Part shown: piece after piece, positions 1-7,275 of the stretch
Layout of the letters: every line of letters begins with the position of its first letter
Numbering within the stretch: position 1 is the stretch's first letter
Assembly: GCA_021513695.1 (NCBI GenBank)
Contig: CP084166.1
Location: 608,001 to 672,000, forward strand
DNA length: 64,000 nucleotides
Direction of reading: 5' to 3'
Origin: Candidatus Heimdallarchaeum aukensis
GTDB lineage: Archaea > Asgardarchaeota > Heimdallarchaeia > Heimdallarchaeales > Heimdallarchaeaceae
Position numbers and translations under genes: made by a program
The notes under the pieces: generated by a model
What the model was told of the DNA's origin: nothing
Seen by the model: the letters and a program-made list of their open reading frames with translations, nothing else
The model's database searches: none

Positions 1-547
1 TATTTTCAAAATTGTACTTATTGGTGATGGCGCAGTAGGAAAAACTTCTATTAGAATGCAATATATGGGATACGGATTCAATACCAGTCATCTTATGACC
101 CTGGGAGCAGATTTTTCATCTATTGATAAAGAAATTATTCCTAACGAAAAATGGAAATTTCAAATTTGGGATTTAGCAGGACAACAAATGTTTGAACAAG
201 TTCGAGCTCGTTTTTACAAAGGAGCTCAGGGTGCCTTACTTGTCTTTGATATCACTCGCCCTTCCTCTTTTCAAAACCTTCCCATGTGGTTAAACGAATT
301 GTATAAATTCAACGGATCAGGAGTTGTCCCTGTTGTAGTCCTTGCTAATAAGAGTGATTTGAGAGATAGAAAAAGTGTTAAATTCAAACATGTAGAAAAA
401 TATGTTTCTGAATTAAATCTGCGTACCCAACGCTATGGTGTAACTAATTATTGTTTAGAAACAAGTGCCAAGACTGGATTAAACATCGATAGAGCTTTTG
501 AAATTCTCGGGAGAAGCATTCGAGATAAATCAAGCAAAAAAACATAA
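1..547 (+). CDS. Ras/Rab-like small GTPase; 5' end runs off the window (ORF-track ATG at 56 is internal)
   Basis: Reading frame 2 from position 2 gives IFKIVLIGDGAVGKTSI (P-loop GxxxxGKT) in frame with the listed ORF. The ORF has G3 WDLAGQQ, G4 NKSD and G5 ETSAKT, the canonical Ras-superfamily order. Confidence 0.85.
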   Translation, partial: IFKIVLIGDGAVGKTSIRMQYMGYGFNTSHLMTLGADFSSIDKEIIPNEKWKFQIWDLAGQQMFEQVRARFYKGAQGALLVFDITRPSSFQNLPMWLNELYKFNGSGVVPVVVLANKSDLRDRKSVKFKHVEKYVSELNLRTQRYGVTNYCLETSAKTGLNIDRAFEILGRSIRDKSSKKT

Positions 548-628
548 TACCCAATACATTAATTTTTTATACTTTAAGTGATTCTTTTAAGTATATACTA
601 ATAAACGAAAGATTCTGAGGAAAAACCA

Positions 629-1195
629 ATGCTCACATTTAAGATCCTTTTTATAGGCGATAATAGCGTAGGTAAAACTACTTTATTTAAAAAAATTGTT
701 CAAAATGAAAAAAATAAAGAAAAGATCCCTTCTCTAAAAGCAGAAATAGTAAAAGTTTATCGTACAATCCAAGGAGAAGAAGTAGCTTTTGAACTATATG
801 ATTTACCTGCGAGAGAACTTTTATCATCTCCTCAAAGAACAAAATGGTATTTAGGGACTGATGGAGCGTTTATAGTTTTTGACATTACAAAAGCAGAAAC
901 GTTCAGAAGAGTAACATTCTGGCTAGAACAATTAATAAATTATAACAGAAAAGGGAAGATACCTATAGTATTAGTAGGTAATAAAATAGATATGAGAGAC
1001 AATCCTAATGTGAGAAATAGGACACTAAACCCTATAGATGCTCAAGCTTTCTGTCTTCGACTAAATCGTACATCAGCTAGAGAAGGAATTAATAATGAAT
1101 TCTTCGAAGTCTCAGCAATCTCAGGGAAAGGTTTAACTCAATTACTTGATGCATTAGCTAAAAATATTTATAACCATCACAAAAAAATAAAATAG
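629..1195 (+). CDS. Ras-superfamily small GTPase with a non-canonical G3 motif
   Basis: P-loop GDNSVGKTT, G4 GNKID and G5 SAISGKG are present. The G3 position reads YDLPARE instead of DxxGQ, so the conserved Gly and catalytic Gln are replaced. It lies in tandem 81 bp downstream of the first GTPase on the same strand. Confidence 0.8.
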   Translation: MLTFKILFIGDNSVGKTTLFKKIVQNEKNKEKIPSLKAEIVKVYRTIQGEEVAFELYDLPARELLSSPQRTKWYLGTDGAFIVFDITKAETFRRVTFWLEQLINYNRKGKIPIVLVGNKIDMRDNPNVRNRTLNPIDAQAFCLRLNRTSAREGINNEFFEVSAISGKGLTQLLDALAKNIYNHHKKIK

Positions 1196-1227
1196 GAAAC
1201 ATAGCTCTACTCGGAGATAAGATTTGA

Positions 1228-1773
1228 ATGTTTTTAGTCGCTCACATTGGATATACTTTATTAACTGCTGAAATACTCGCACACCTATATTATTGGTTGT
1301 TCTTAAAGAAAAAGAATTTGGAGCCTACAGATAGTTGGGGAATAGTTCATTTTGCTTTTCTACCCCTCATAATAGGTGCTCTTGGTCCAGACATTATTGA
1401 TAAATTAATTTCAGAACCTATAACAGGTTATGGCAGGTATATTGGACATTCTATTCCGTTCGCTATATTGATATTTATTTTATTTATAGCCATTTTTTGG
1501 AAGAAACCAACAGTTTATTCAGCTTTGATTCTTGGGTGGATAATGCACATCATTCTGGATACAGCAGGTTTTATTCCCTGGTTTTTCCCTTTTGTAGAAT
1601 ACAACTTTCAATCAAAAACTCAAACATATATTGAGCTTCTTTTTCAACCATATGTTTACAATAACGAAATTGGAGGATTCCTGTGCATACTTTTTCTCGC
1701 AGTTCTTTACTTTAGAAGAGGTTTTACTCTCAGATCTTTTATTCAACATATCTTTACTTTCTCTCCTAAATAA
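1228..1773 (+). CDS. polytopic membrane protein, YdjM/DUF457-like membrane-bound metal-dependent hydrolase (tentative)
   Basis: Multiple hydrophobic helices with conserved His positions (HIGYTLL, GHSIPF, HIILDTAGF) reminiscent of the DUF457 family. Assigned by pattern memory only. Confidence 0.4.
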   Translation: MFLVAHIGYTLLTAEILAHLYYWLFLKKKNLEPTDSWGIVHFAFLPLIIGALGPDIIDKLISEPITGYGRYIGHSIPFAILIFILFIAIFWKKPTVYSALILGWIMHIILDTAGFIPWFFPFVEYNFQSKTQTYIELLFQPYVYNNEIGGFLCILFLAVLYFRRGFTLRSFIQHIFTFSPK

Positions 1774-1798
1774 TTTGAATAGATTTAAATAGTAGTCC

Positions 1799-1818
1799 AT
1801 TACTACTATAGTAGTAAT
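1799..1818. promoter_or_regulatory. 20-bp perfect palindrome ATTACTACTATAGTAGTAAT immediately upstream of the next CDS, with a third TAGTAGT half-site at 1792-1798
   Basis: Read directly: the reverse complement of 1799-1808 equals 1809-1818. Located 14 nt upstream of the ATG at 1832. Confidence 0.3.
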
Positions 1819-1831
1819 AGGGCGATTGAGT

Positions 1832-3067
1832 ATGAAATATTGCACAAAATGTGGAACAAAAACACCAGAAGATGCAGTTTTTTGTTATGTATGTGGAACA
1901 AAAATTGATGATCTATCTGTTGATTTACAAAAATCAACAAAGGACAAAGTAAGCGATCACAGACATTACTATCCTCACTCTTCACAACAAATAGATGATA
2001 AATACTACAAAGATTATACCCACAAAGAACACGTTTTTCTTAAAATCTTAGCTATTGTCTTTATAATTGGAATGATCACTGCTTCTATTTCTTTATTTGC
2101 TGTTTTCAGCTCTTTCAGAATGGATGTCATTGGTACTCAAAATTACTATTTAGAAGAAGCAAACTCTAATGAAGTTTTTCTAAATATTTACAACGGTATT
2201 GGAGACATAGACATTATCTTTACTGATGATACAGACATAATGGTCGAAATAAATGTAATCGTATTAGGCAGAAAAAATGTTGATGAGTCAGAATTTGCGG
2301 AATTTAAAATAAATGATTATGAGAAAAATCTTACCATTGAGTTTGATTCTGGAGAACAAATCTTTTCTTTCTTTAATAAGAAAATTCTTGAATATGATAT
2401 TAGCATTACTTTAAACTCTAAACTAGTTCTATATGCAGATGTTCAGATGGAAACGGGAGACTTTTACTTGGACATCAATTGCCAAACAGCTAATATAAAC
2501 AATTTAAATATTGTAACAAAGACAGGTGATGTTAGCATTTATGCATATTCCACGGAAAATGTAACAATCAACAACGTATATCTAGTTTCCACAACTGGAC
2601 AAATTCAGTTTAGTTTAAGTGATGAAGGAGCAAATTACATCAGCAATGTATTTGCAACCACAACCACAGGAAAAATATTTTTCGATTTTGGTAGGAATAG
2701 TATATACAATGGAAATGAAATAGAACTTACAACAACTACAGGAAAAATAGTCCTATACTGCACTAACATGCAATATTTAGAAAATGTTACTTGGTTAATT
2801 TCTACAAGTACAGGTTCGGTTTATGCAAATATCACTCAAGATTTTATCATTGAAAAACAATTACAAATTTCTTTCTTTATTACAGTTAATACTGGGTCAA
2901 TAGAAATTCTTGCTGAATTCCACGATGATATTGGTTACCTTTTCGAAGCAACAACTGATACTGGAACAATTACAATTCCTGAACAATCTCCAAATTATGA
3001 TACTGCTTTAAACAAGTATTATTTTTCCTTAAGCACTGACACTGGAAACATAATGGCAGAATTGTAA
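1832..3067 (+). CDS. zinc-ribbon / single TM / DUF4097-like beta-strand repeat (putative adhesin-fold) protein
   Basis: N-terminal CTKCG...CYVCG zinc ribbon, a hydrophobic helix (ILAIVFIIGMITASISLFAVF), then repeated TTTGKI / TSTGSV / VNTGSI / TDTGTI beta-strand units. The ORF track begins at TTG 1826; ATG at 1832 is preferred. Confidence 0.5.
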   Translation: MKYCTKCGTKTPEDAVFCYVCGTKIDDLSVDLQKSTKDKVSDHRHYYPHSSQQIDDKYYKDYTHKEHVFLKILAIVFIIGMITASISLFAVFSSFRMDVIGTQNYYLEEANSNEVFLNIYNGIGDIDIIFTDDTDIMVEINVIVLGRKNVDESEFAEFKINDYEKNLTIEFDSGEQIFSFFNKKILEYDISITLNSKLVLYADVQMETGDFYLDINCQTANINNLNIVTKTGDVSIYAYSTENVTINNVYLVSTTGQIQFSLSDEGANYISNVFATTTTGKIFFDFGRNSIYNGNEIELTTTTGKIVLYCTNMQYLENVTWLISTSTGSVYANITQDFIIEKQLQISFFITVNTGSIEILAEFHDDIGYLFEATTDTGTITIPEQSPNYDTALNKYYFSLSTDTGNIMAEL

Positions 3068-3136
3068 TCTTATGCAGCATTTTTTTCTTTTTTTTGATTA
3101 CAATAAATTAAAAAATGTTCAAAATTAGTTTTTCAT

Positions 3137-4282
3137 ATGACCGATAAATACATTGAACAAATTAGAGAAGATTCTCCTACTTTGAACCAAGTAGCTTTTT
3201 TGAATCATGCGAGCACAGCTCCTTTACATGGAAGAACACAGCAAGCTTTCTATGATTATTTGAATCAATGGTCTAAATACAATTTTACTGAATCAAGAGA
3301 AAAAAGTCAACTCGCTCGTGAAGAATTTGCTAAATTAATTGGAGCTTCAAAAGAAGAAATTCTTTTTACTTCTGATGTTACTCAAGGAACTAATTTAGCA
3401 GTTCACATGTTAGATTATGATGAAAAAAGCAATATTGTCTGCTATTGGAATGATTATGCAGGACAAGTACATAGTGCCCTTTTCTTGCAAAAAAAGAAAA
3501 ATATAGAGTATAGACCTGTTCCAGATCGAGATGGATACATTTATCCTGAGGACTTTGCAGAAAAAATAGACAAAAACACTAAAATTGTTCTTTTGTCTCA
3601 TGTTCAATGGATTACTGGATTTAAGTCTGATATCAAGGAGATAGCTAAAATCGCTCACGAAAACGGTGCAATGATTTTAGTCGATGTAATTCAAAGTTCG
3701 GGTGTTCTCAAGATCGATGTTAGAGATTGGGATATTGATTTTCTTACTTCGGGTGTAGCTAAATGGCTTTTAGGACCTAATCAAACAGGTTTTTTCTATA
3801 TGAGAAAAAGATTCATTGATGAATACGATCCTCCTTTTCCAGGTTACCAAGGAGCAGATTATGGCTCTATTGAGTCTCCTTATTGGAATGTTAAAAAAAT
3901 ACAATACAGAGAAGGGATAGATAAGTTTCAAATTGCAAACATAGGTCCAATGATGTATCAAATTGCCTACGAAGGAATGAAAATAATCACTGATTATGGA
4001 ATAGAAAAAGTAGAGAAAAGAGTTTTAGAACTAACTGCTTATCTTATTAAGAGAATCCAAAATTTAGGCAATTATGAGCTTTTAAGTCCTGTTGAAGATA
4101 AGTATAGAGCTGGGATTGTTAATTTCAAAGTTGATAAAAACATTGAGATAGCCAAAAAACTTGCAGAAGAAAAGATAGTTGTTTCTCCAAGATATGGAGG
4201 AATCAGGATTAGTCCTCATTTCTATAATACAAAGGAAGACTTAGACAAATTTATTGAAAAATTCAAATCTATAAAGAAATAG
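3137..4282 (+). CDS. class V aminotransferase-fold PLP-dependent enzyme (cysteine desulfurase / selenocysteine lyase-like)
   Basis: 381 aa. LTSGVAKWLLGPNQTGFFY matches the SxHKxxGP PLP-lysine region of class V enzymes, within an overall fold-type I layout. Confidence 0.7.
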   Translation: MTDKYIEQIREDSPTLNQVAFLNHASTAPLHGRTQQAFYDYLNQWSKYNFTESREKSQLAREEFAKLIGASKEEILFTSDVTQGTNLAVHMLDYDEKSNIVCYWNDYAGQVHSALFLQKKKNIEYRPVPDRDGYIYPEDFAEKIDKNTKIVLLSHVQWITGFKSDIKEIAKIAHENGAMILVDVIQSSGVLKIDVRDWDIDFLTSGVAKWLLGPNQTGFFYMRKRFIDEYDPPFPGYQGADYGSIESPYWNVKKIQYREGIDKFQIANIGPMMYQIAYEGMKIITDYGIEKVEKRVLELTAYLIKRIQNLGNYELLSPVEDKYRAGIVNFKVDKNIEIAKKLAEEKIVVSPRYGGIRISPHFYNTKEDLDKFIEKFKSIKK

Positions 4283-4380
4283 AAGTAGATTATCTCTATC
4301 TTACTTTTTTTGATGCTTACTAATTTTTCTGCCTAAATTTTATATAGTAGTACCATTTTATCCTCTTAATACAAATACAT

Positions 4381-7275
4381 ATGACCAATACGGGTGATTT
4401 AAAAGTGAAAAAAAAGAAACTTGAAGAGCCTGAGGAAGTAAAAGAAGAAGTTTATTGGCATGCGTTAAAAAAAGAAGAAGTCTTTAAGCGCTTGAATACT
4501 TCTGAAAATGGACTTAGCTCTGAAGAAGTCTCAAAAAGACACGAAATATACGGTTTAAACAAGATTGTAATTAAAGAACGTTTTAAAATTCTAAAAATGA
4601 TTATTGAACAATTTCAAGATTTCCTTGTACTCTTACTAGTTGTAGCTGGCACCATAAGTTTAGGTGTAGGTATTTCATATTCTTCTCCTGGAAATATTTC
4701 TACAGAGATCTATGATGCTATTGCCATTTTTGCAATAGTATTACTTAATGCTAGTATAGGATTTGTTCAAGATTACAAGTCTAATCAAGCTTTAGAAAAA
4801 CTAAAAGAGTATTTCGAGCAAGATGTGGTTACTATAAGGAACGGAAAAGAGTTCATTGTTCCTTCTTCAGATCTTGTTCCTGGAGATATAATTGTAATAG
4901 AGGCAGGAGACAAAATCCCAGCAGATTGTAGAATTTTACAATTAAACAATTTAAAAATAGATGAAGCCCCCCTTACTGGAGAATCAAAATCTATAACCAA
5001 GAGCCTAGATCTTGTAGACAAAGATGCAAGAATACACGATAGAAAAAATATGGTTTTTATGGGTACGACTTGTGTTTATGGAAGAGCTAAACTTGTAGTA
5101 GTAAAAACTGGAATGGAAACAGAGATGGGTGAGATCGCCAAACTTACACAAGTTAAAACAGAGATGACTCCTTTACAGAAATCTCTTGATAGGTTTGGTA
5201 AAAGTTTAGGTGCGATAATTCTAGCTTTATCTGCTGTTATTATGATTGTTGAAATTATTTCTGAGATTCATTTTTATGGTTCAGAGAAAACAATCTTCGA
5301 GATTATATTTGAGAGCTTTGAAACCGCTATTGCTTTAGCTATTTCTGCTGTTCCTGAAGGTTTGGCCGCAGCGATAGTTATTACCTTAGCAATAGGAGTT
5401 TCACGTATGGCTAAAAAACGTACAATAGTTTCTAGATTACCAGCGGTTGAAACTTTAGGAAGCGTTAACTACATTTGCTCTGATAAAACAGGAACATTAA
5501 CCAGAAATGAGATGACTGTTAAAGAGATATGGACACCAGATGACAAATATATTGAAGTGGAAGGAAGCGGATATCTAAAAGAAGGAAGATTTATGCAAGA
5601 AGATAAAGTCTTCGATCCTTCAAAATCACCATCGCTAATGAAAGTGTTAGAAATTTCTTATCATTGCAACAATTCTTCTTTGATAAGAAACGGTAATTCT
5701 ATCCAAGTCAGAGGTGACCCTACCGAAGCTGCTCTTCTAGTTGTTGCTGAAAAAGGAGGATTGACTGAAGCTGATAAAAAAGAGAGAATTCATGAACTAT
5801 TTTTTGACAGTGACAGAAAAAGAATGACTACAATCCACAAAGATGGCGAAAAGAATATTGCACTCATGAAAGGTTCTCCACCCATTGTTTTACAAAGATG
5901 TAAATATATTTTAATTAATGGTAAAGTTGAACCTTTAACCGCAGAAATACAAAAGTCTATAGAAGAAGCTAACGTTAACATGTCATCTAAAGCTCTTCGA
6001 GTTTTGGCAATGGCTTACCGCGAGGTTCCTGATGACTTTGACAGAGATGATTATGACTCTATAGAAGTAGATATGATTTTTGTAGGATTAACAGGAATGA
6101 TTGACCCAGCAAGACCAAACGTAAAAGAAGCTATACAAGAGTGCAAAGAAGCTGGTATAACTACAATCATGATTACTGGAGATCAAAAAGAAACTGCTGT
6201 AGCTGTAGCCAAAGAAATAGGAATACTAACTTCTGAAGATGAACTAGTTGTAAATGGAGAAGAATTAGACCTAATGACTGAAGAAGAGTTAGTAGAGAAA
6301 ATAGAGAAAATAAAAGTCTATAGTAGAATGAGTCCCAAAGATAAATACAGAGTGGTCGAGACCTTACAAAAATTAGACAATTTTGTTGCTGTAACTGGAG
6401 ATGGAGTAAATGATGCTCCTGCACTAAAGAAAGCTGATATCGGTGTTGCTATGGGAATCACTGGAACTGATGTAACTAAAGAAGTTGCAGATATGGTTAT
6501 TACAGACGATGCTTTTAACACAATAGTTGATGCAGTAGAAGAAGGAAGAAATATCTTTGCTAACATGAAGCGATTTATAAGATACACTTTAAGTAGTAAT
6601 TTTGATGAATTGTTTGCAGTGTTACTTATTACTTCTTGGTTAGGAGTTTTACCCTTTACCCCCTTACAAATTCTGTTCCTTAACTTATTAACTGATGCCT
6701 TACCAGCTTTAAGTTTATCCTTTGAACCATATGATCCAAAGTTGATGAAGAGACCTCCAAGAGGAAAACATGATTCATTCCTTCGAGAAATGTATTCTTT
6801 CGCAGTTATTTCAGGTATAGTTGCTTTCTTTGCATCTGTTTCAATGTTCTTACTAGTATATTTCCACATGGGTCCTCAAAAGTTCGGTTCAATAGACATC
6901 CCAGAGAACAAGGACCAAATAGTAGCTTATGCCCAATTTATGGCTTTCATTGTAACCCTTACATTTGAATTAGTTTTCGTGTTCATAGCTAGAAATGACA
7001 ACGATGTCAAAGTCTATGAGACTAATCCTTTCAAGAACAAGATGCTCATCTGGGCAGTTATTAGCTCTGTTGTGTTACTTGCCTTAGTAATTTTCATTCC
7101 TGTGCTTCAAAGTATTTTCACTTCGTTCGACAACTATTACTATGTTCCTGATCTGGTAGACTGGGCATGGATAGCTCTCTTCACTGTCGGATTCAATATT
7201 ATTATTGAACTCTTCAGAGAACTTATGATGACAAAGAAGATGAGTAAAATCGCTCACAAAATTGGTTTTGCCTAA
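4381..7275 (+). CDS. P-type cation-transporting ATPase, P2 (Ca2+-ATPase-like)
   Basis: 964 aa. CSDKTGTLT phosphorylation motif, TGDGVNDAPALKKADIGVAMG hinge motif, about 10 TM segments, and an N-terminal cation-ATPase-N-like region. Confidence 0.9.
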   Translation: MTNTGDLKVKKKKLEEPEEVKEEVYWHALKKEEVFKRLNTSENGLSSEEVSKRHEIYGLNKIVIKERFKILKMIIEQFQDFLVLLLVVAGTISLGVGISYSSPGNISTEIYDAIAIFAIVLLNASIGFVQDYKSNQALEKLKEYFEQDVVTIRNGKEFIVPSSDLVPGDIIVIEAGDKIPADCRILQLNNLKIDEAPLTGESKSITKSLDLVDKDARIHDRKNMVFMGTTCVYGRAKLVVVKTGMETEMGEIAKLTQVKTEMTPLQKSLDRFGKSLGAIILALSAVIMIVEIISEIHFYGSEKTIFEIIFESFETAIALAISAVPEGLAAAIVITLAIGVSRMAKKRTIVSRLPAVETLGSVNYICSDKTGTLTRNEMTVKEIWTPDDKYIEVEGSGYLKEGRFMQEDKVFDPSKSPSLMKVLEISYHCNNSSLIRNGNSIQVRGDPTEAALLVVAEKGGLTEADKKERIHELFFDSDRKRMTTIHKDGEKNIALMKGSPPIVLQRCKYILINGKVEPLTAEIQKSIEEANVNMSSKALRVLAMAYREVPDDFDRDDYDSIEVDMIFVGLTGMIDPARPNVKEAIQECKEAGITTIMITGDQKETAVAVAKEIGILTSEDELVVNGEELDLMTEEELVEKIEKIKVYSRMSPKDKYRVVETLQKLDNFVAVTGDGVNDAPALKKADIGVAMGITGTDVTKEVADMVITDDAFNTIVDAVEEGRNIFANMKRFIRYTLSSNFDELFAVLLITSWLGVLPFTPLQILFLNLLTDALPALSLSFEPYDPKLMKRPPRGKHDSFLREMYSFAVISGIVAFFASVSMFLLVYFHMGPQKFGSIDIPENKDQIVAYAQFMAFIVTLTFELVFVFIARNDNDVKVYETNPFKNKMLIWAVISSVVLLALVIFIPVLQSIFTSFDNYYYVPDLVDWAWIALFTVGFNIIIELFRELMMTKKMSKIAHKIGFA

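What the first reader, a model, noticed from the sequence alone, without database searches (positions are those of the whole stretch)
629..1195. Small GTPase with catalytic G3 motif replaced (YDLPARE instead of DxxGQ)
Both the invariant G3 Gly and the Gln that positions the hydrolytic water are substituted (Gly to Ala, Gln to Arg). The other G motifs are intact. By analogy with GTPase-deficient Ras-family members this predicts a constitutively GTP-bound protein, or one needing an Arg-finger-independent GAP. It sits in tandem with a canonical paralogue (1-547, WDLAGQQ), suggesting subfunctionalisation.
Basis: partly seen in the sequence, partly recalled or inferred. Interest (0 to 1): 0.5.

Follow-up and report, generated by a model that had tools for sequence, protein, structure and literature searches.

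The report
Atypical Ras-like GTPase paired with normal twin
An archaeon closely related to eukaryotes carries, next to a normal Ras/Rab-like GTPase gene, a conserved sister gene that keeps its nucleotide-binding pocket but has replaced the residues that normally sense and hydrolyse GTP, so it probably does not cycle on and off as ordinary GTPases do.

Summary
Window 629-1195 (+) encodes a 188-aa Ras/Rab-fold protein, UJG41324.1 of Ca. Heimdallarchaeum aukensis. Its switch-II motif is YDLPARE where Rabs have WDTAGQE. Three independent alignments and an AlphaFold model agree on the placement, and the protein contains no DxxG anywhere.

The protein belongs to a discrete family found only in Heimdallarchaeota, about 46 clusters. 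All members lack the catalytic Gln (Arg or Lys in 44 of 47) and the G2 Thr (Ser or Ala). All have Pro at Ras position 59, and most have Tyr at Ras position 12. G1, G4 and G5 are kept.

The G3 Gly is labile. Most members read DIPGRE; Gly is Ala here and in DIPAKE and DLPAGE lineages, and Arg in DFPRRE.

The gene is under strong purifying selection (dN/dS 0.03). It almost always follows a highly conserved canonical paralogue (DLAGQ).

The best reading is a nucleotide-binding, hydrolysis-poor GTPase without a canonical switch that works with its neighbour. The main rival is an LRRK2-ROC-like mechanism in which the Arg senses the gamma-phosphate. No biochemistry exists. It is an undescribed variant of a known kind (atypical or pseudo-GTPases), of moderate interest.

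The parts
629..1195 (+). Gene B: atypical Ras/Rab-fold GTPase, 188 aa (UJG41324.1, Ca. Heimdallarchaeum aukensis)
   Evidence: ORF. Pfam Ras 6e-26. AlphaFold pLDDT 93.3, pTM 0.90. Foldseek best hits are Rab10, Rab8, Rab2, Rab11 and Rab7. Exact match to UJG41324.1.
656..679 (+). G1 / P-loop, GDNSVGKT (residues 10-17). Intact. The residue at Ras position 12 is Asn here and Tyr in 35 of 46 family clusters.
731..733 (+). G2 position: Ser35 in place of the invariant switch-I Thr (PSLKAEI versus Rab TIGVDF)
   Evidence: Alignments. Across the family: Ser 34, Ala 12, Thr 0.
800..817 (+). G3 / switch II, D58-L-P-A-R-E63. Pro replaces Ras A59, Ala replaces G60 and Arg replaces Q61.
   Evidence: Sequence; alignments.
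980..991 (+). G4, N118-K-I-D121 (guanine specificity). Intact.
1112..1120 (+). G5, S162-A-I164 (SAK in most family members)
1019..1072 (+). Family signature R131-TLNPIDA...RLNRT148, lying on and before a lengthened helix alpha4. With helix alpha3 (F92, R93, F97, W98, E100, N104, Y105) it forms the most B-specific conserved surface and is a candidate protein-protein interface.
   Evidence: Conservation analysis; secondary structure of the model.
2..547 (+). Gene A: canonical paralogue (UJG41323.1), cut at its 5' end by the window. GDGAVGKT, MTLGADF, WDLAGQQ, NKSD, SAK.
   Evidence: Pfam Ras 3.7e-40. 100% identical to P0211. 72-85% identical among orthologues, always directly upstream of B.
1228..1773 (+). 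YdjM-family (PF04307) integral membrane protein, 32 nt downstream of B. It accompanies the pair in the early-branching B lineages only.
   Evidence: Pfam 3.4e-12; synteny; alignment with invariant His and Asp residues.

Best explanation
Gene B encodes a Ras-like paralogue that still binds guanine nucleotide but no longer works as a canonical GTP/GDP switch.

Shown: the fold and the G1, G4 and G5 motifs are retained. All three elements that normally contact the gamma-phosphate or the attacking water are replaced: Thr35 to Ser, Gly60 to Ala (preceded by Pro), and Gln61 to Arg.

Inferred:
- Without the Gly60 amide/hinge and the Gln, intrinsic hydrolysis is very slow.
- With its own Arg62 and a non-Gly residue at Ras position 12, the active site has no room or need for a GAP arginine finger.
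- The protein is therefore expected to stay nucleotide-bound, most likely GTP-bound, with Arg62 clamping the gamma-phosphate, and to cycle little or not at all.
- It acts as a constitutive partner or regulator of the canonical GTPase A encoded directly upstream, probably through its strongly conserved alpha3/alpha4 surface. This would resemble the way degenerate paralogues serve in other GTPase pairs and oligomers.

In relatives that keep Gly (DIPGRE), a residual slow cycle is more likely. The Heimdallarchaeum lineage has gone one step further.
For: - Motif placement and fold.
- Discrete family: 46 clusters at 213 bits or more, then a gap to 119 bits. Only two 50%-identity clusters appear among 1.84 billion representatives.
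- Family-wide pattern: Gln absent in 47 of 47 (Arg/Lys in 44), Thr35 absent in all 46 clusters where the position is present (Ser 34, Ala 12), Pro59 in 47 of 47. G1, G4 and G5 are kept.
- Gly60 changes state at least four times on a neighbour-joining tree. This indicates relaxed constraint on the canonical gamma-phosphate contact.
- Purifying selection: dN/dS 0.034 for window versus L006, and about 0.15-0.24 in the deeper comparisons that were not saturated.
- AlphaFold contrast: B has a confident, structured switch I with an extra strand (residues 30-33) and a low-confidence switch II (pLDDT 62). The canonical A shows the opposite.
- B-specific conserved residues cluster on alpha3 and alpha4.
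- Literature: Ras Y32F, T35S and G60A adopt state 1 with drastically impaired GTPase (PMC4867591). RabA1a Q72K was crystallised with GTP (5xr7).
- From general knowledge, not checked here: NRAS Q61R and Q61K are strongly GTPase-deficient oncogenic alleles.
Against: - There is no biochemical or structural measurement for any family member.
- Conservation of a basic residue at position 61 is equally compatible with a working cis-arginine mechanism, as proposed for LRRK2 R1398, which contributes to kcat.
- Ser can still coordinate Mg2+.
- An Ala at the Gly60 position still has a backbone amide, so the effect is inferred from Ras mutants only.
- A physical A-B interaction rests solely on conserved gene order. 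That order sits inside a wider conserved block (MFS transporter, A, B, YdjM where present, class-V aminotransferase) and could reflect vertical inheritance alone.
- A co-folding prediction could not be run.
- pLDDT is not a measure of dynamics.
Confidence: 0.5

Rival explanations
1. LRRK2-ROC-like active switch. The Arg or Lys at the Gln61 position directly contacts the gamma-phosphate in cis. It replaces the Thr35 and Gly60 contacts as the nucleotide-state sensor and also neutralises charge during hydrolysis. B would then still cycle between GTP and GDP states, slowly and possibly through dimerisation, and remain a true switch with rewired chemistry.
For: - A basic residue at position 61 is kept in 44 of 47 clusters, while Gly60 and Thr35 are free to vary. 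That pattern suggests selection for the charge rather than neglect.
- The majority motif D-I-P-G-R-E closely resembles LRRK2's DFAGRE.
- B scores 2e-17 against Pfam Roc.
Against: - The window protein, unlike LRRK2 and most of its own family, has also lost Gly60 (Pro-Ala). In Ras that change alone impairs the GTP-induced transition and hydrolysis.
- Q-to-K or Q-to-R changes in Rab and Ras preserve GTP rather than hydrolyse it (5xr7; NRAS from general knowledge).
- The LRRK2 Arg-phosphate contact is itself inferred from modelling.
- B has no COR domain.
Confidence: 0.28
2. Ordinary working small GTPase. The substitutions are tolerated variants, and hydrolysis is supplied entirely in trans by a dedicated GAP that provides the catalytic residue (as RapGAP's Asn thumb does for Rap, which lacks Gln61). 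B would then be a normal switch with a private GAP.
For: - Natural GTPases without Gln61 do cycle with specialised GAPs (Rap/RapGAP, general knowledge).
- Non-canonical G3 residues are not rare among Ras-like domains. In 215 domains nearest to the B profile, 17% lack Gly60 and 40% lack Gln61.
- Asgard genomes encode many roadblock and longin proteins.
Against: - No candidate GAP lies in the conserved neighbourhood.
- The simultaneous loss of Thr35, Gly60 and Gln61 removes the sensing elements as well as the catalytic residue, and a GAP does not restore those.
- The repeated changes at position 60 argue that the canonical contact is dispensable.
Confidence: 0.12
3. Nucleotide-free scaffold (class i pseudoGTPase). 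B has lost nucleotide binding altogether and serves only as a protein-binding module.
For: Class i pseudoGTPases with a GTPase fold exist, for example AAGAB. Switch-region degeneration in B is extensive.
Against: G1 GxxxxGK[ST], G4 NKxD and the G5 Ser are invariant or nearly so in all 47 clusters. That is not expected if nucleotide binding were lost.
Confidence: 0.06
4. Decaying duplicate or annotation artefact with no function.
For: B evolves about twice as fast as A at non-synonymous sites.
Against: dN/dS is 0.034 over 27 synonymous versus 4 non-synonymous differences. The ORFs are intact in every one of the 22 loci examined that carry a family member (excluding L022) and in 46 protein clusters. 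49 positions are invariant across 39-64% identical members.
Confidence: 0.02

Closest known systems
Asgard 'RasL' / Rab-like small GTPases (e.g. Thor-Rab, PDB 7EZB; Klinger 2016 and Vargova 2024 nomenclature)
   Same: Single-domain Ras/Rab fold of about 185 aa. The best sequence and structure matches are Rab11, Rab35, Rab2, Rab7 and Rab10. There is no C-terminal prenylation Cys, as reported for Asgard Rabs. The neighbouring gene A is a typical member.
   Different: B lacks the G2 Thr, the G3 Gly and the catalytic Gln that characterised Asgard Rabs keep. It forms a separate, tight family restricted to Heimdallarchaeota. It was not found in the literature searched.
LRRK2 ROC domain (switch II DFAGRE, Arg1398 at the Gln61-equivalent position)
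   Same: A natural Arg at the catalytic-Gln position, followed by Glu. The majority family motif DIPGRE has the same pattern. In LRRK2 the Arg is proposed to sense the gamma-phosphate and aid hydrolysis.
   Different: B has no COR, kinase or other domain, and Pfam Ras scores better than Roc. The window protein additionally lacks the G3 Gly and the G2 Thr. The two cases arose independently. The LRRK2 paper states Arg was seen only in LRRK2 among the Roco proteins it examined.
Nucleotide-binding atypical or pseudo-GTPases of the Ras superfamily (Rnd1-3, RhoH, RGK proteins Rad/Gem/Rem with DxWE in place of DxxG)
   Same: The fold and nucleotide pocket are retained, the catalytic and switch residues are replaced, and function is thought to be regulated by means other than GTP hydrolysis. 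This comparison rests on general knowledge; the pseudoGTPase concept appears.
   Different: The residues differ (Pro-Ala-Arg here). B is archaeal, a single domain, and genetically paired with a canonical paralogue. No activity data exist for B.
Engineered or oncogenic Ras and Rab mutants T35S, G60A and Q61R/K (and RabA1a Q72K, PDB 5xr7)
   Same: B naturally combines the equivalents of T35S, G60A and Q61R. Singly, these give state-1, GTPase-impaired Ras or GTP-retaining Rab.
   Different: Those are single substitutions in an otherwise canonical background. B has co-evolved with its changes for a long time, so their effects may be compensated.
Heteromeric GTPase pairs with one degenerate subunit (RagA/B-RagC/D, septin pseudoGTPase subunits)
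   Same: Two paralogous G domains are encoded or assembled together, one conventional and one divergent. A pair of Rag-like genes in an operon has been noted in an Asgard genome. Septin degeneration within a hetero-oligomer is described in PMC10731463.
   Different: A and B lack the C-terminal roadblock domains that hold Rag dimers together. No A-B interaction has been shown.

Membership tests
Ras superfamily small GTPase (Pfam PF00071 / TIGR00231) | G-domain alpha/beta fold | tested here: met
   AlphaFold pLDDT 93.3, pTM 0.90. Foldseek hits to Rabs, TM 0.7-0.8, probability 1.00. Pfam Ras 91 bits against a cut-off of 21.6.
Ras superfamily small GTPase (Pfam PF00071 / TIGR00231) | G1 P-loop GxxxxGK[ST] | tested here: met
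   GDNSVGKT, residues 10-17. G10, G15 and K16 are invariant in the family.
Ras superfamily small GTPase (Pfam PF00071 / TIGR00231) | G2 invariant switch-I Thr (Ras T35) | tested here: not met
   Ser35. Family: Ser 34, Ala 12, Thr 0.
Ras superfamily small GTPase (Pfam PF00071 / TIGR00231) | G3 DxxG, with Gly contacting the gamma-phosphate | tested here: not met
   DLPA. There is no DxxG anywhere in the protein. Gly is kept in 29 of 47 family clusters.
Ras superfamily small GTPase (Pfam PF00071 / TIGR00231) | Catalytic Gln after G3 (Ras Q61) | tested here: not met
   Arg62. Family: Arg 31, Lys 13, Gly 2, Thr 1, Gln 0.
Ras superfamily small GTPase (Pfam PF00071 / TIGR00231) | G4 NKxD and G5 SAx guanine-recognition motifs | tested here: met
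   NKID (118-121) and SAI (162-164). N118, K119, D121 and S162 are invariant.
Ras superfamily small GTPase (Pfam PF00071 / TIGR00231) | GTP binding and hydrolysis | not testable with these tools
   Requires purified protein.
Eukaryotic Rab family in the strict sense (the NCBI name for relatives is 'Rab family GTPase') | C-terminal Cys prenylation motif | tested here: not met
   The C-terminus is ...NIYNHHKKIK, with no Cys. This matches what is reported for Asgard Rabs.
Eukaryotic Rab family in the strict sense (the NCBI name for relatives is 'Rab family GTPase') | RabF1 (IGVDF) and RabF2 (KLQIWDTAGQE) motifs | tested here: not met
   LKAEI and AFELYDLPARE occupy the aligned positions.
ROCO / LRRK2-type ROC domain | ROC followed by a COR domain | tested here: not met
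   A 188-aa single domain. The Pfam Roc match (63.9 bits) is weaker than the Ras match (91.3 bits).
ROCO / LRRK2-type ROC domain | Arg at the Gln61-equivalent position (specific to LRRK2) | tested here: met
   Arg62 by alignment.
Rag/Gtr heterodimeric GTPases | C-terminal roadblock dimerisation domain | tested here: not met
   Neither A (187 aa) nor B (188 aa) has a C-terminal domain. A gives only a secondary Gtr1_RagA hit of 30.9 bits.
PseudoGTPase (catalytically inactive GTPase-fold protein) | Absence of catalytic residues at sequence level | tested here: met
   Gln61, Gly60 and Thr35 equivalents are all replaced.
PseudoGTPase (catalytically inactive GTPase-fold protein) | Demonstrated lack of GTPase activity, with nucleotide-binding class assigned | not testable with these tools
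Intact G1, G4 and G5 predict a nucleotide-binding class rather than class i.

The most novel reading that the evidence does not exclude
The A-B pair may be an obligate two-GTPase module specific to Heimdallarchaeota. In it B, through a cis Arg/Lys gamma-phosphate clamp convergent with LRRK2 R1398, holds GTP quasi-permanently and gates or localises the canonical switch A. In early-branching lineages this might happen at the membrane, with the co-encoded YdjM-like protein. That would make it a prokaryotic, roadblock-independent counterpart of asymmetric GTPase heterodimers such as Rag, in the archaeal lineage closest to eukaryotes.
Probability: 0.15. Interest if true: 0.65.

Novelty: new variant of a known kind. 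Interest (0 to 1): 0.4.

Why it matters
Asgard archaea carry large repertoires of Ras-like GTPases, and almost none has an assigned function.

This work defines a compact, easily expressed family (about 185 aa, single domain). In it the three canonical gamma-phosphate and water contacts are naturally replaced while nucleotide-binding motifs stay under selection. The family is genetically paired with a canonical twin.

If B is GTP-locked, it is a prokaryotic example of the atypical or pseudo-GTPase strategy known from Rnd, RGK and septins. If instead its Arg/Lys senses the gamma-phosphate, it is a second, independent and far simpler natural model for the disputed LRRK2 R1398 mechanism.

Natural variation within the family (DIPGRE, DIPAKE, DLPARE, DFPRRE, DLPAGE) offers a ready-made mutational series for either test. 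The practical value is as a biochemical model and as a marker family for Heimdallarchaeaceae. It does not by itself change views on eukaryogenesis.

Tried and rejected
1. A-B complex prediction. An unpaired alignment (A7) was useless, because MAFFT laid the B homologues onto the A half.

2. Model coordinates are not exposed, so distances from Arg62 to the P-loop could not be measured.

3. Literature searches found nothing on this family:
- 'Heimdallarchaeota + Rab + catalytic glutamine': 0 papers.
- 'pseudoGTPase + Asgard': 0 papers.
- The protein accessions: 0 papers.
- The supplements held for the Asgard Arf preprint: 0 hits.
The Heimdallarchaeum genome paper treats all small GTPases as one family.

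4. Rup3, the Heimdallarchaeia-specific GTPase group of Vargova et al., was considered and rejected. It is defined by unusual insertions in the G domain. B has none beyond a lengthened alpha4, which it shares with A.

5. Pseudogene or chance ORF: rejected by dN/dS and conservation.

6. A misplaced G3 motif: rejected.

7. A search for further Ras-like genes in the 64-kb window found nothing beyond A and B. Roadblock and longin genes were not searched for.

8. dS is saturated for all but the closest pair. Deep dN/dS values are therefore unreliable and were not used.
Full report
**1. What is at the coordinates**

Window 629-1195 (+) is an intact 188-codon ORF with an ATG start and a GAGG ribosome-binding site. 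The product matches Pfam Ras (E = 6e-26, full length) and TIGR00231 small_GTP. An exact-sequence look-up identifies it as UJG41324.1, annotated 'GTP-binding protein', of Candidatus Heimdallarchaeum aukensis. The cut ORF upstream (window 2-547) is UJG41323.1. The window is 30% G+C.

**2.

Several lines place YDLPARE where Rabs have WDTAGQE:
- BLASTP against the upstream paralogue aligns DLPAR with DLAGQ (29% identity, E = 7e-31).
- phmmer against all PDB chains aligns 'ydlpare' with 'wdtagqe' of Rab35, RabA1a and Rab11.
- All family alignments agree.
- The AlphaFold model (pLDDT 93.3, pTM 0.90) ends strand beta3 at D58, as Ras does at D57.

By alignment, Ras A59, G60 and Q61 correspond to Pro60, Ala61 and Arg62. 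G1 (GDNSVGKT), G4 (NKID) and G5 (SAI) are present.

G2 is not intact, because the switch-I Thr is Ser35 (PSLKAEI versus TIGVDF).

**3. It is a family**

A profile of the first four relatives was searched against 1.84 billion cluster representatives. Only two 50%-identity clusters belong with it (339 and 227 bits). Everything below is ordinary or multi-domain Ras-like protein.

In the 5.8-billion-sequence collection the family comprises 46 clusters at 90% identity, scoring 213-335 bits. There is then a sharp gap to 119 bits. Every member that carries a source name is named Heimdallarchaeota or Heimdallarchaeaceae.

A scan of one genome per GTDB species found orthologues in 13 Heimdallarchaeota genomes (L009-L021, 41-96% identical) plus a more distant relative, L022 (35%), which scores below the family gap. 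The closest match (96%) is in the complete genome of Ca. H. endolithica.

**4. Family-wide motif pattern (47 sequences including the window)**

| Position | States observed |
|---|---|
| G3 motif | DIPGRE 24, DIPAKE 9, DLPARE 4, DIPGKE 4, DFPRRE 2, DLPAGE 2, DIPGTE 1, DLPSRE 1 |
| Ras Q61 equivalent | Never Gln; basic (Arg 31, Lys 13) in 44 of 47 |
| Ras A59 equivalent | Always Pro |
| G2 Thr equivalent | Never Thr; Ser 34, Ala 12 (position missing in one partial cluster) |
| Ras G12 equivalent | Tyr in 35 of 46; Asn in the window |
| G1, G4, G5 Ser | Invariant or nearly so |

Gly is kept in 29 clusters and replaced by Ala, Arg or Ser in 18.

A neighbour-joining tree was built without the motif columns. 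On it, the state at position 60 changes at least four times. The tree has no support values, so the direction of change is uncertain.

Of the 12 clusters with Ala at G2, 11 also have Ala at G3. The two canonical gamma-phosphate contacts thus tend to be lost together, although this may reflect only two or three evolutionary events.

For comparison, 215 other Ras-like domains nearest to the B profile were examined. Among them 83% keep Gly60, 60% Gln61 and 80% Thr35, and 7% have Arg or Lys at position 61. This is a biased sample, but it shows that such departures occur elsewhere and are in the minority.

**5. The gene is functional**

- Against a 98%-identical relative (L006) the gene has 27 synonymous and 4 non-synonymous differences, giving dN/dS = 0.034. 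That is comparable to the canonical neighbour (0.025) and lower than the downstream YdjM gene (0.106).
- 49 positions are invariant among members that are only 39-64% identical.
- B accumulates non-synonymous change about twice as fast as A (dN 0.25 versus 0.15, and 0.46 versus 0.20, for the same genome pairs). This indicates asymmetric divergence after an old duplication.

**6. Genomic context**

In all loci with enough upstream sequence except two, B lies directly downstream of an orthologue of A on the same strand. Spacers range from about 50 to about 210 nt. A is canonical (GDGAVGKT, MTLGADF, WDLAGQ, NKSD, SAK) and 72-85% identical across the same genomes. They include the DIPAKE and DLPAGE lineages.

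In the P0008 lineage (L020, L021) the upstream gene is instead a 303-324-aa Arf-like GTPase with a C-terminal extension.

A YdjM-family membrane protein follows B within 17-120 nt in the early-branching lineages. It is absent at that position in the large DIPGRE clade.

The pair sits in a wider conserved block: MFS transporter, A, B, YdjM where present, then class-V aminotransferase. Synteny alone therefore does not prove a functional link. The window contains no other Ras-like ORF; roadblock and longin genes were not searched for.

A and B share a lengthened helix alpha4 that other Rabs lack. This supports the view that they are each other's closest paralogues.

**7. Structure**

Foldseek places the B model among Rabs (Rab10, Rab8, Rab2, Rab11, Rab7; TM 0.70-0.79).

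AlphaFold is very confident about B's switch I (pLDDT 93-96) and gives it an extra short strand at residues 30-33. It is unsure about switch II (residues 61-70, pLDDT 62). The canonical A gives the reverse: switch I at 50-70, and a confident switch-II helix. This fits a fixed rather than mobile switch I in B, but pLDDT is not a measure of dynamics.

B-specific conserved residues cluster at P60 and E63, on helix alpha3 (F92, R93, H94, F97, E100, N104, Y105), and on the alpha4 region (R131, L133-A138, R144, R147). This surface is a candidate interaction site. That is an inference.

**8. Mechanism**

Established knowledge: in Ras-like switches the Thr35 and Gly60 main-chain contacts to the gamma-phosphate drive the GTP-dependent 'loaded spring', and Gln61 positions the attacking water.

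Published evidence:
- Ras T35S and G60A mutants sit in the inactive 'state 1', with drastically impaired intrinsic GTPase (PMC4867591).
- The best PDB sequence match to B is RabA1a Q72K. This Rab has Lys at the catalytic position and was crystallised with GTP (5xr7).
- From general knowledge, NRAS Q61R and Q61K are strongly GTPase-deficient.

B combines the equivalents of T35S, G60A and Q61R. It also has Pro before the former hinge Gly and a non-Gly residue at Ras position 12, which in Ras obstructs an external arginine finger.

The best-supported reading (confidence about 0.5) has three parts:
- B binds nucleotide.
- B hydrolyses it very slowly and does not undergo the canonical switch.
- B works as a largely constitutive partner of A.

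The first part is shown only at the level of conserved motifs. The other two are inferred.

**9. Main rival**

A basic residue kept in 44 of 47 clusters, while the neighbouring Gly is free to change, looks like selection for that side chain. In LRRK2 ROC (DFAGRE), Arg1398 occupies the same position. [quoted passage not shown] The authors note that the Arg-phosphate contact is modelled rather than observed.

The family's majority motif DIPGRE is strikingly similar. B could therefore be a rewired but still cycling switch (confidence about 0.28). This is more likely for the Gly-retaining members than for the window protein.

Lesser rivals:
- A private trans-acting GAP (0.12).
- A nucleotide-free scaffold (0.06), which the conserved G1, G4 and G5 motifs argue against.
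- A decaying duplicate (0.02), effectively refuted.

**10. Comparison with what is known**

B works like nucleotide-binding atypical or pseudo-GTPases (Rnd, RhoH, RGK) or like LRRK2 ROC. It is a member of none of them:
- It has no COR domain.
- It has no roadblock domain, so it is not Rag-like.
- It has no Rab prenylation Cys or RabF1/F2 motifs, so the database name 'Rab family GTPase' is loose.
- It has no Rup3-type insertions.

It belongs to the Ras superfamily by fold and by G1, G4 and G5. It fails three of the superfamily's canonical motif criteria.

No paper in the searchable library mentions the protein or an Asgard GTPase family with these features. The Asgard GTPase survey explicitly left divergent, taxon-specific groups uninvestigated.

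**11. Verdict**

- The feature is a previously undescribed, lineage-specific variant of a well-known phenomenon.
- Interest is moderate (0.4). It offers a tractable natural model for non-canonical switch chemistry and for paired GTPases in the archaeal relatives of eukaryotes, but nothing here overturns current understanding and all functional statements remain untested.

Noticed in passing
window 1228-1773 (+); also L001 2690-3889 (two tandem copies), L003 8648-9208, L005 8558-9124, L008 770-1201, L021 4561-5127: A YdjM-family (PF04307) multi-pass membrane protein with invariant His and Asp residues (H6, D55, D58, H74, H107, D111) lies 17-120 nt downstream of the atypical GTPase in the early-branching lineages. 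It is missing at that position in the large DIPGRE clade (L010-L019). This may be a lineage-specific third component or simply synteny.
   Followed up: partly
L020 496-1467 and L021 2986-3897: In the P0008 lineage, the gene upstream of the atypical GTPase is not the canonical paralogue A. It is a 303-324-aa Arf-like GTPase (DIGGQ; Pfam Arf 5e-33) with a C-terminal extension of about 130 aa that has no Pfam match. The extension may be a roadblock- or longin-like domain.
   Followed up: partly
window 1826-3067 (+): A 413-aa protein with an N-terminal zinc ribbon, one predicted hydrophobic segment, and a long repetitive Thr/Asn/Ile-rich C-terminal region with no Pfam match. It is inserted between YdjM and the aminotransferase here and in the close relative L006. 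L001 and L005 have no such gene between YdjM and the aminotransferase.
   Followed up: no
window 629-1195, residue 12; family alignment: The P-loop residue equivalent to Ras Gly12 is Tyr in 35 of 46 family clusters (GDYGVGKT) and Trp in 2. The window lineage has Asn. A bulky aromatic residue at this site is unusual and would occupy the space used by a GAP arginine finger.
   Followed up: partly
P0010 (1706 aa): A large multi-GTPase-domain protein, eukaryote-like with low-complexity linkers, has several Ras-like domains that read YDLAGRE or NDVAGRE. Arg at the catalytic-Gln position therefore also occurs naturally outside LRRK2 and outside this archaeal family.
   Followed up: no
window 1-7275 and L001, L005, L006, L015, L021: The gene order MFS transporter, GTPase A, GTPase B, YdjM (where present), class-V aminotransferase, and in some genomes a P-type cation ATPase, is conserved across Heimdallarchaeota genomes whose B proteins are only 40-50% identical. 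This is unusually stable synteny for such divergence.
   Followed up: partly
window 2-547 (+): The canonical paralogue A belongs to a much larger Heimdallarchaeia family that includes Kariarchaeaceae and Hodarchaeales. Many of its members are about 230-aa forms with a C-terminal extension. Only the 183-192-aa subgroup is paired with B.
   Followed up: partly
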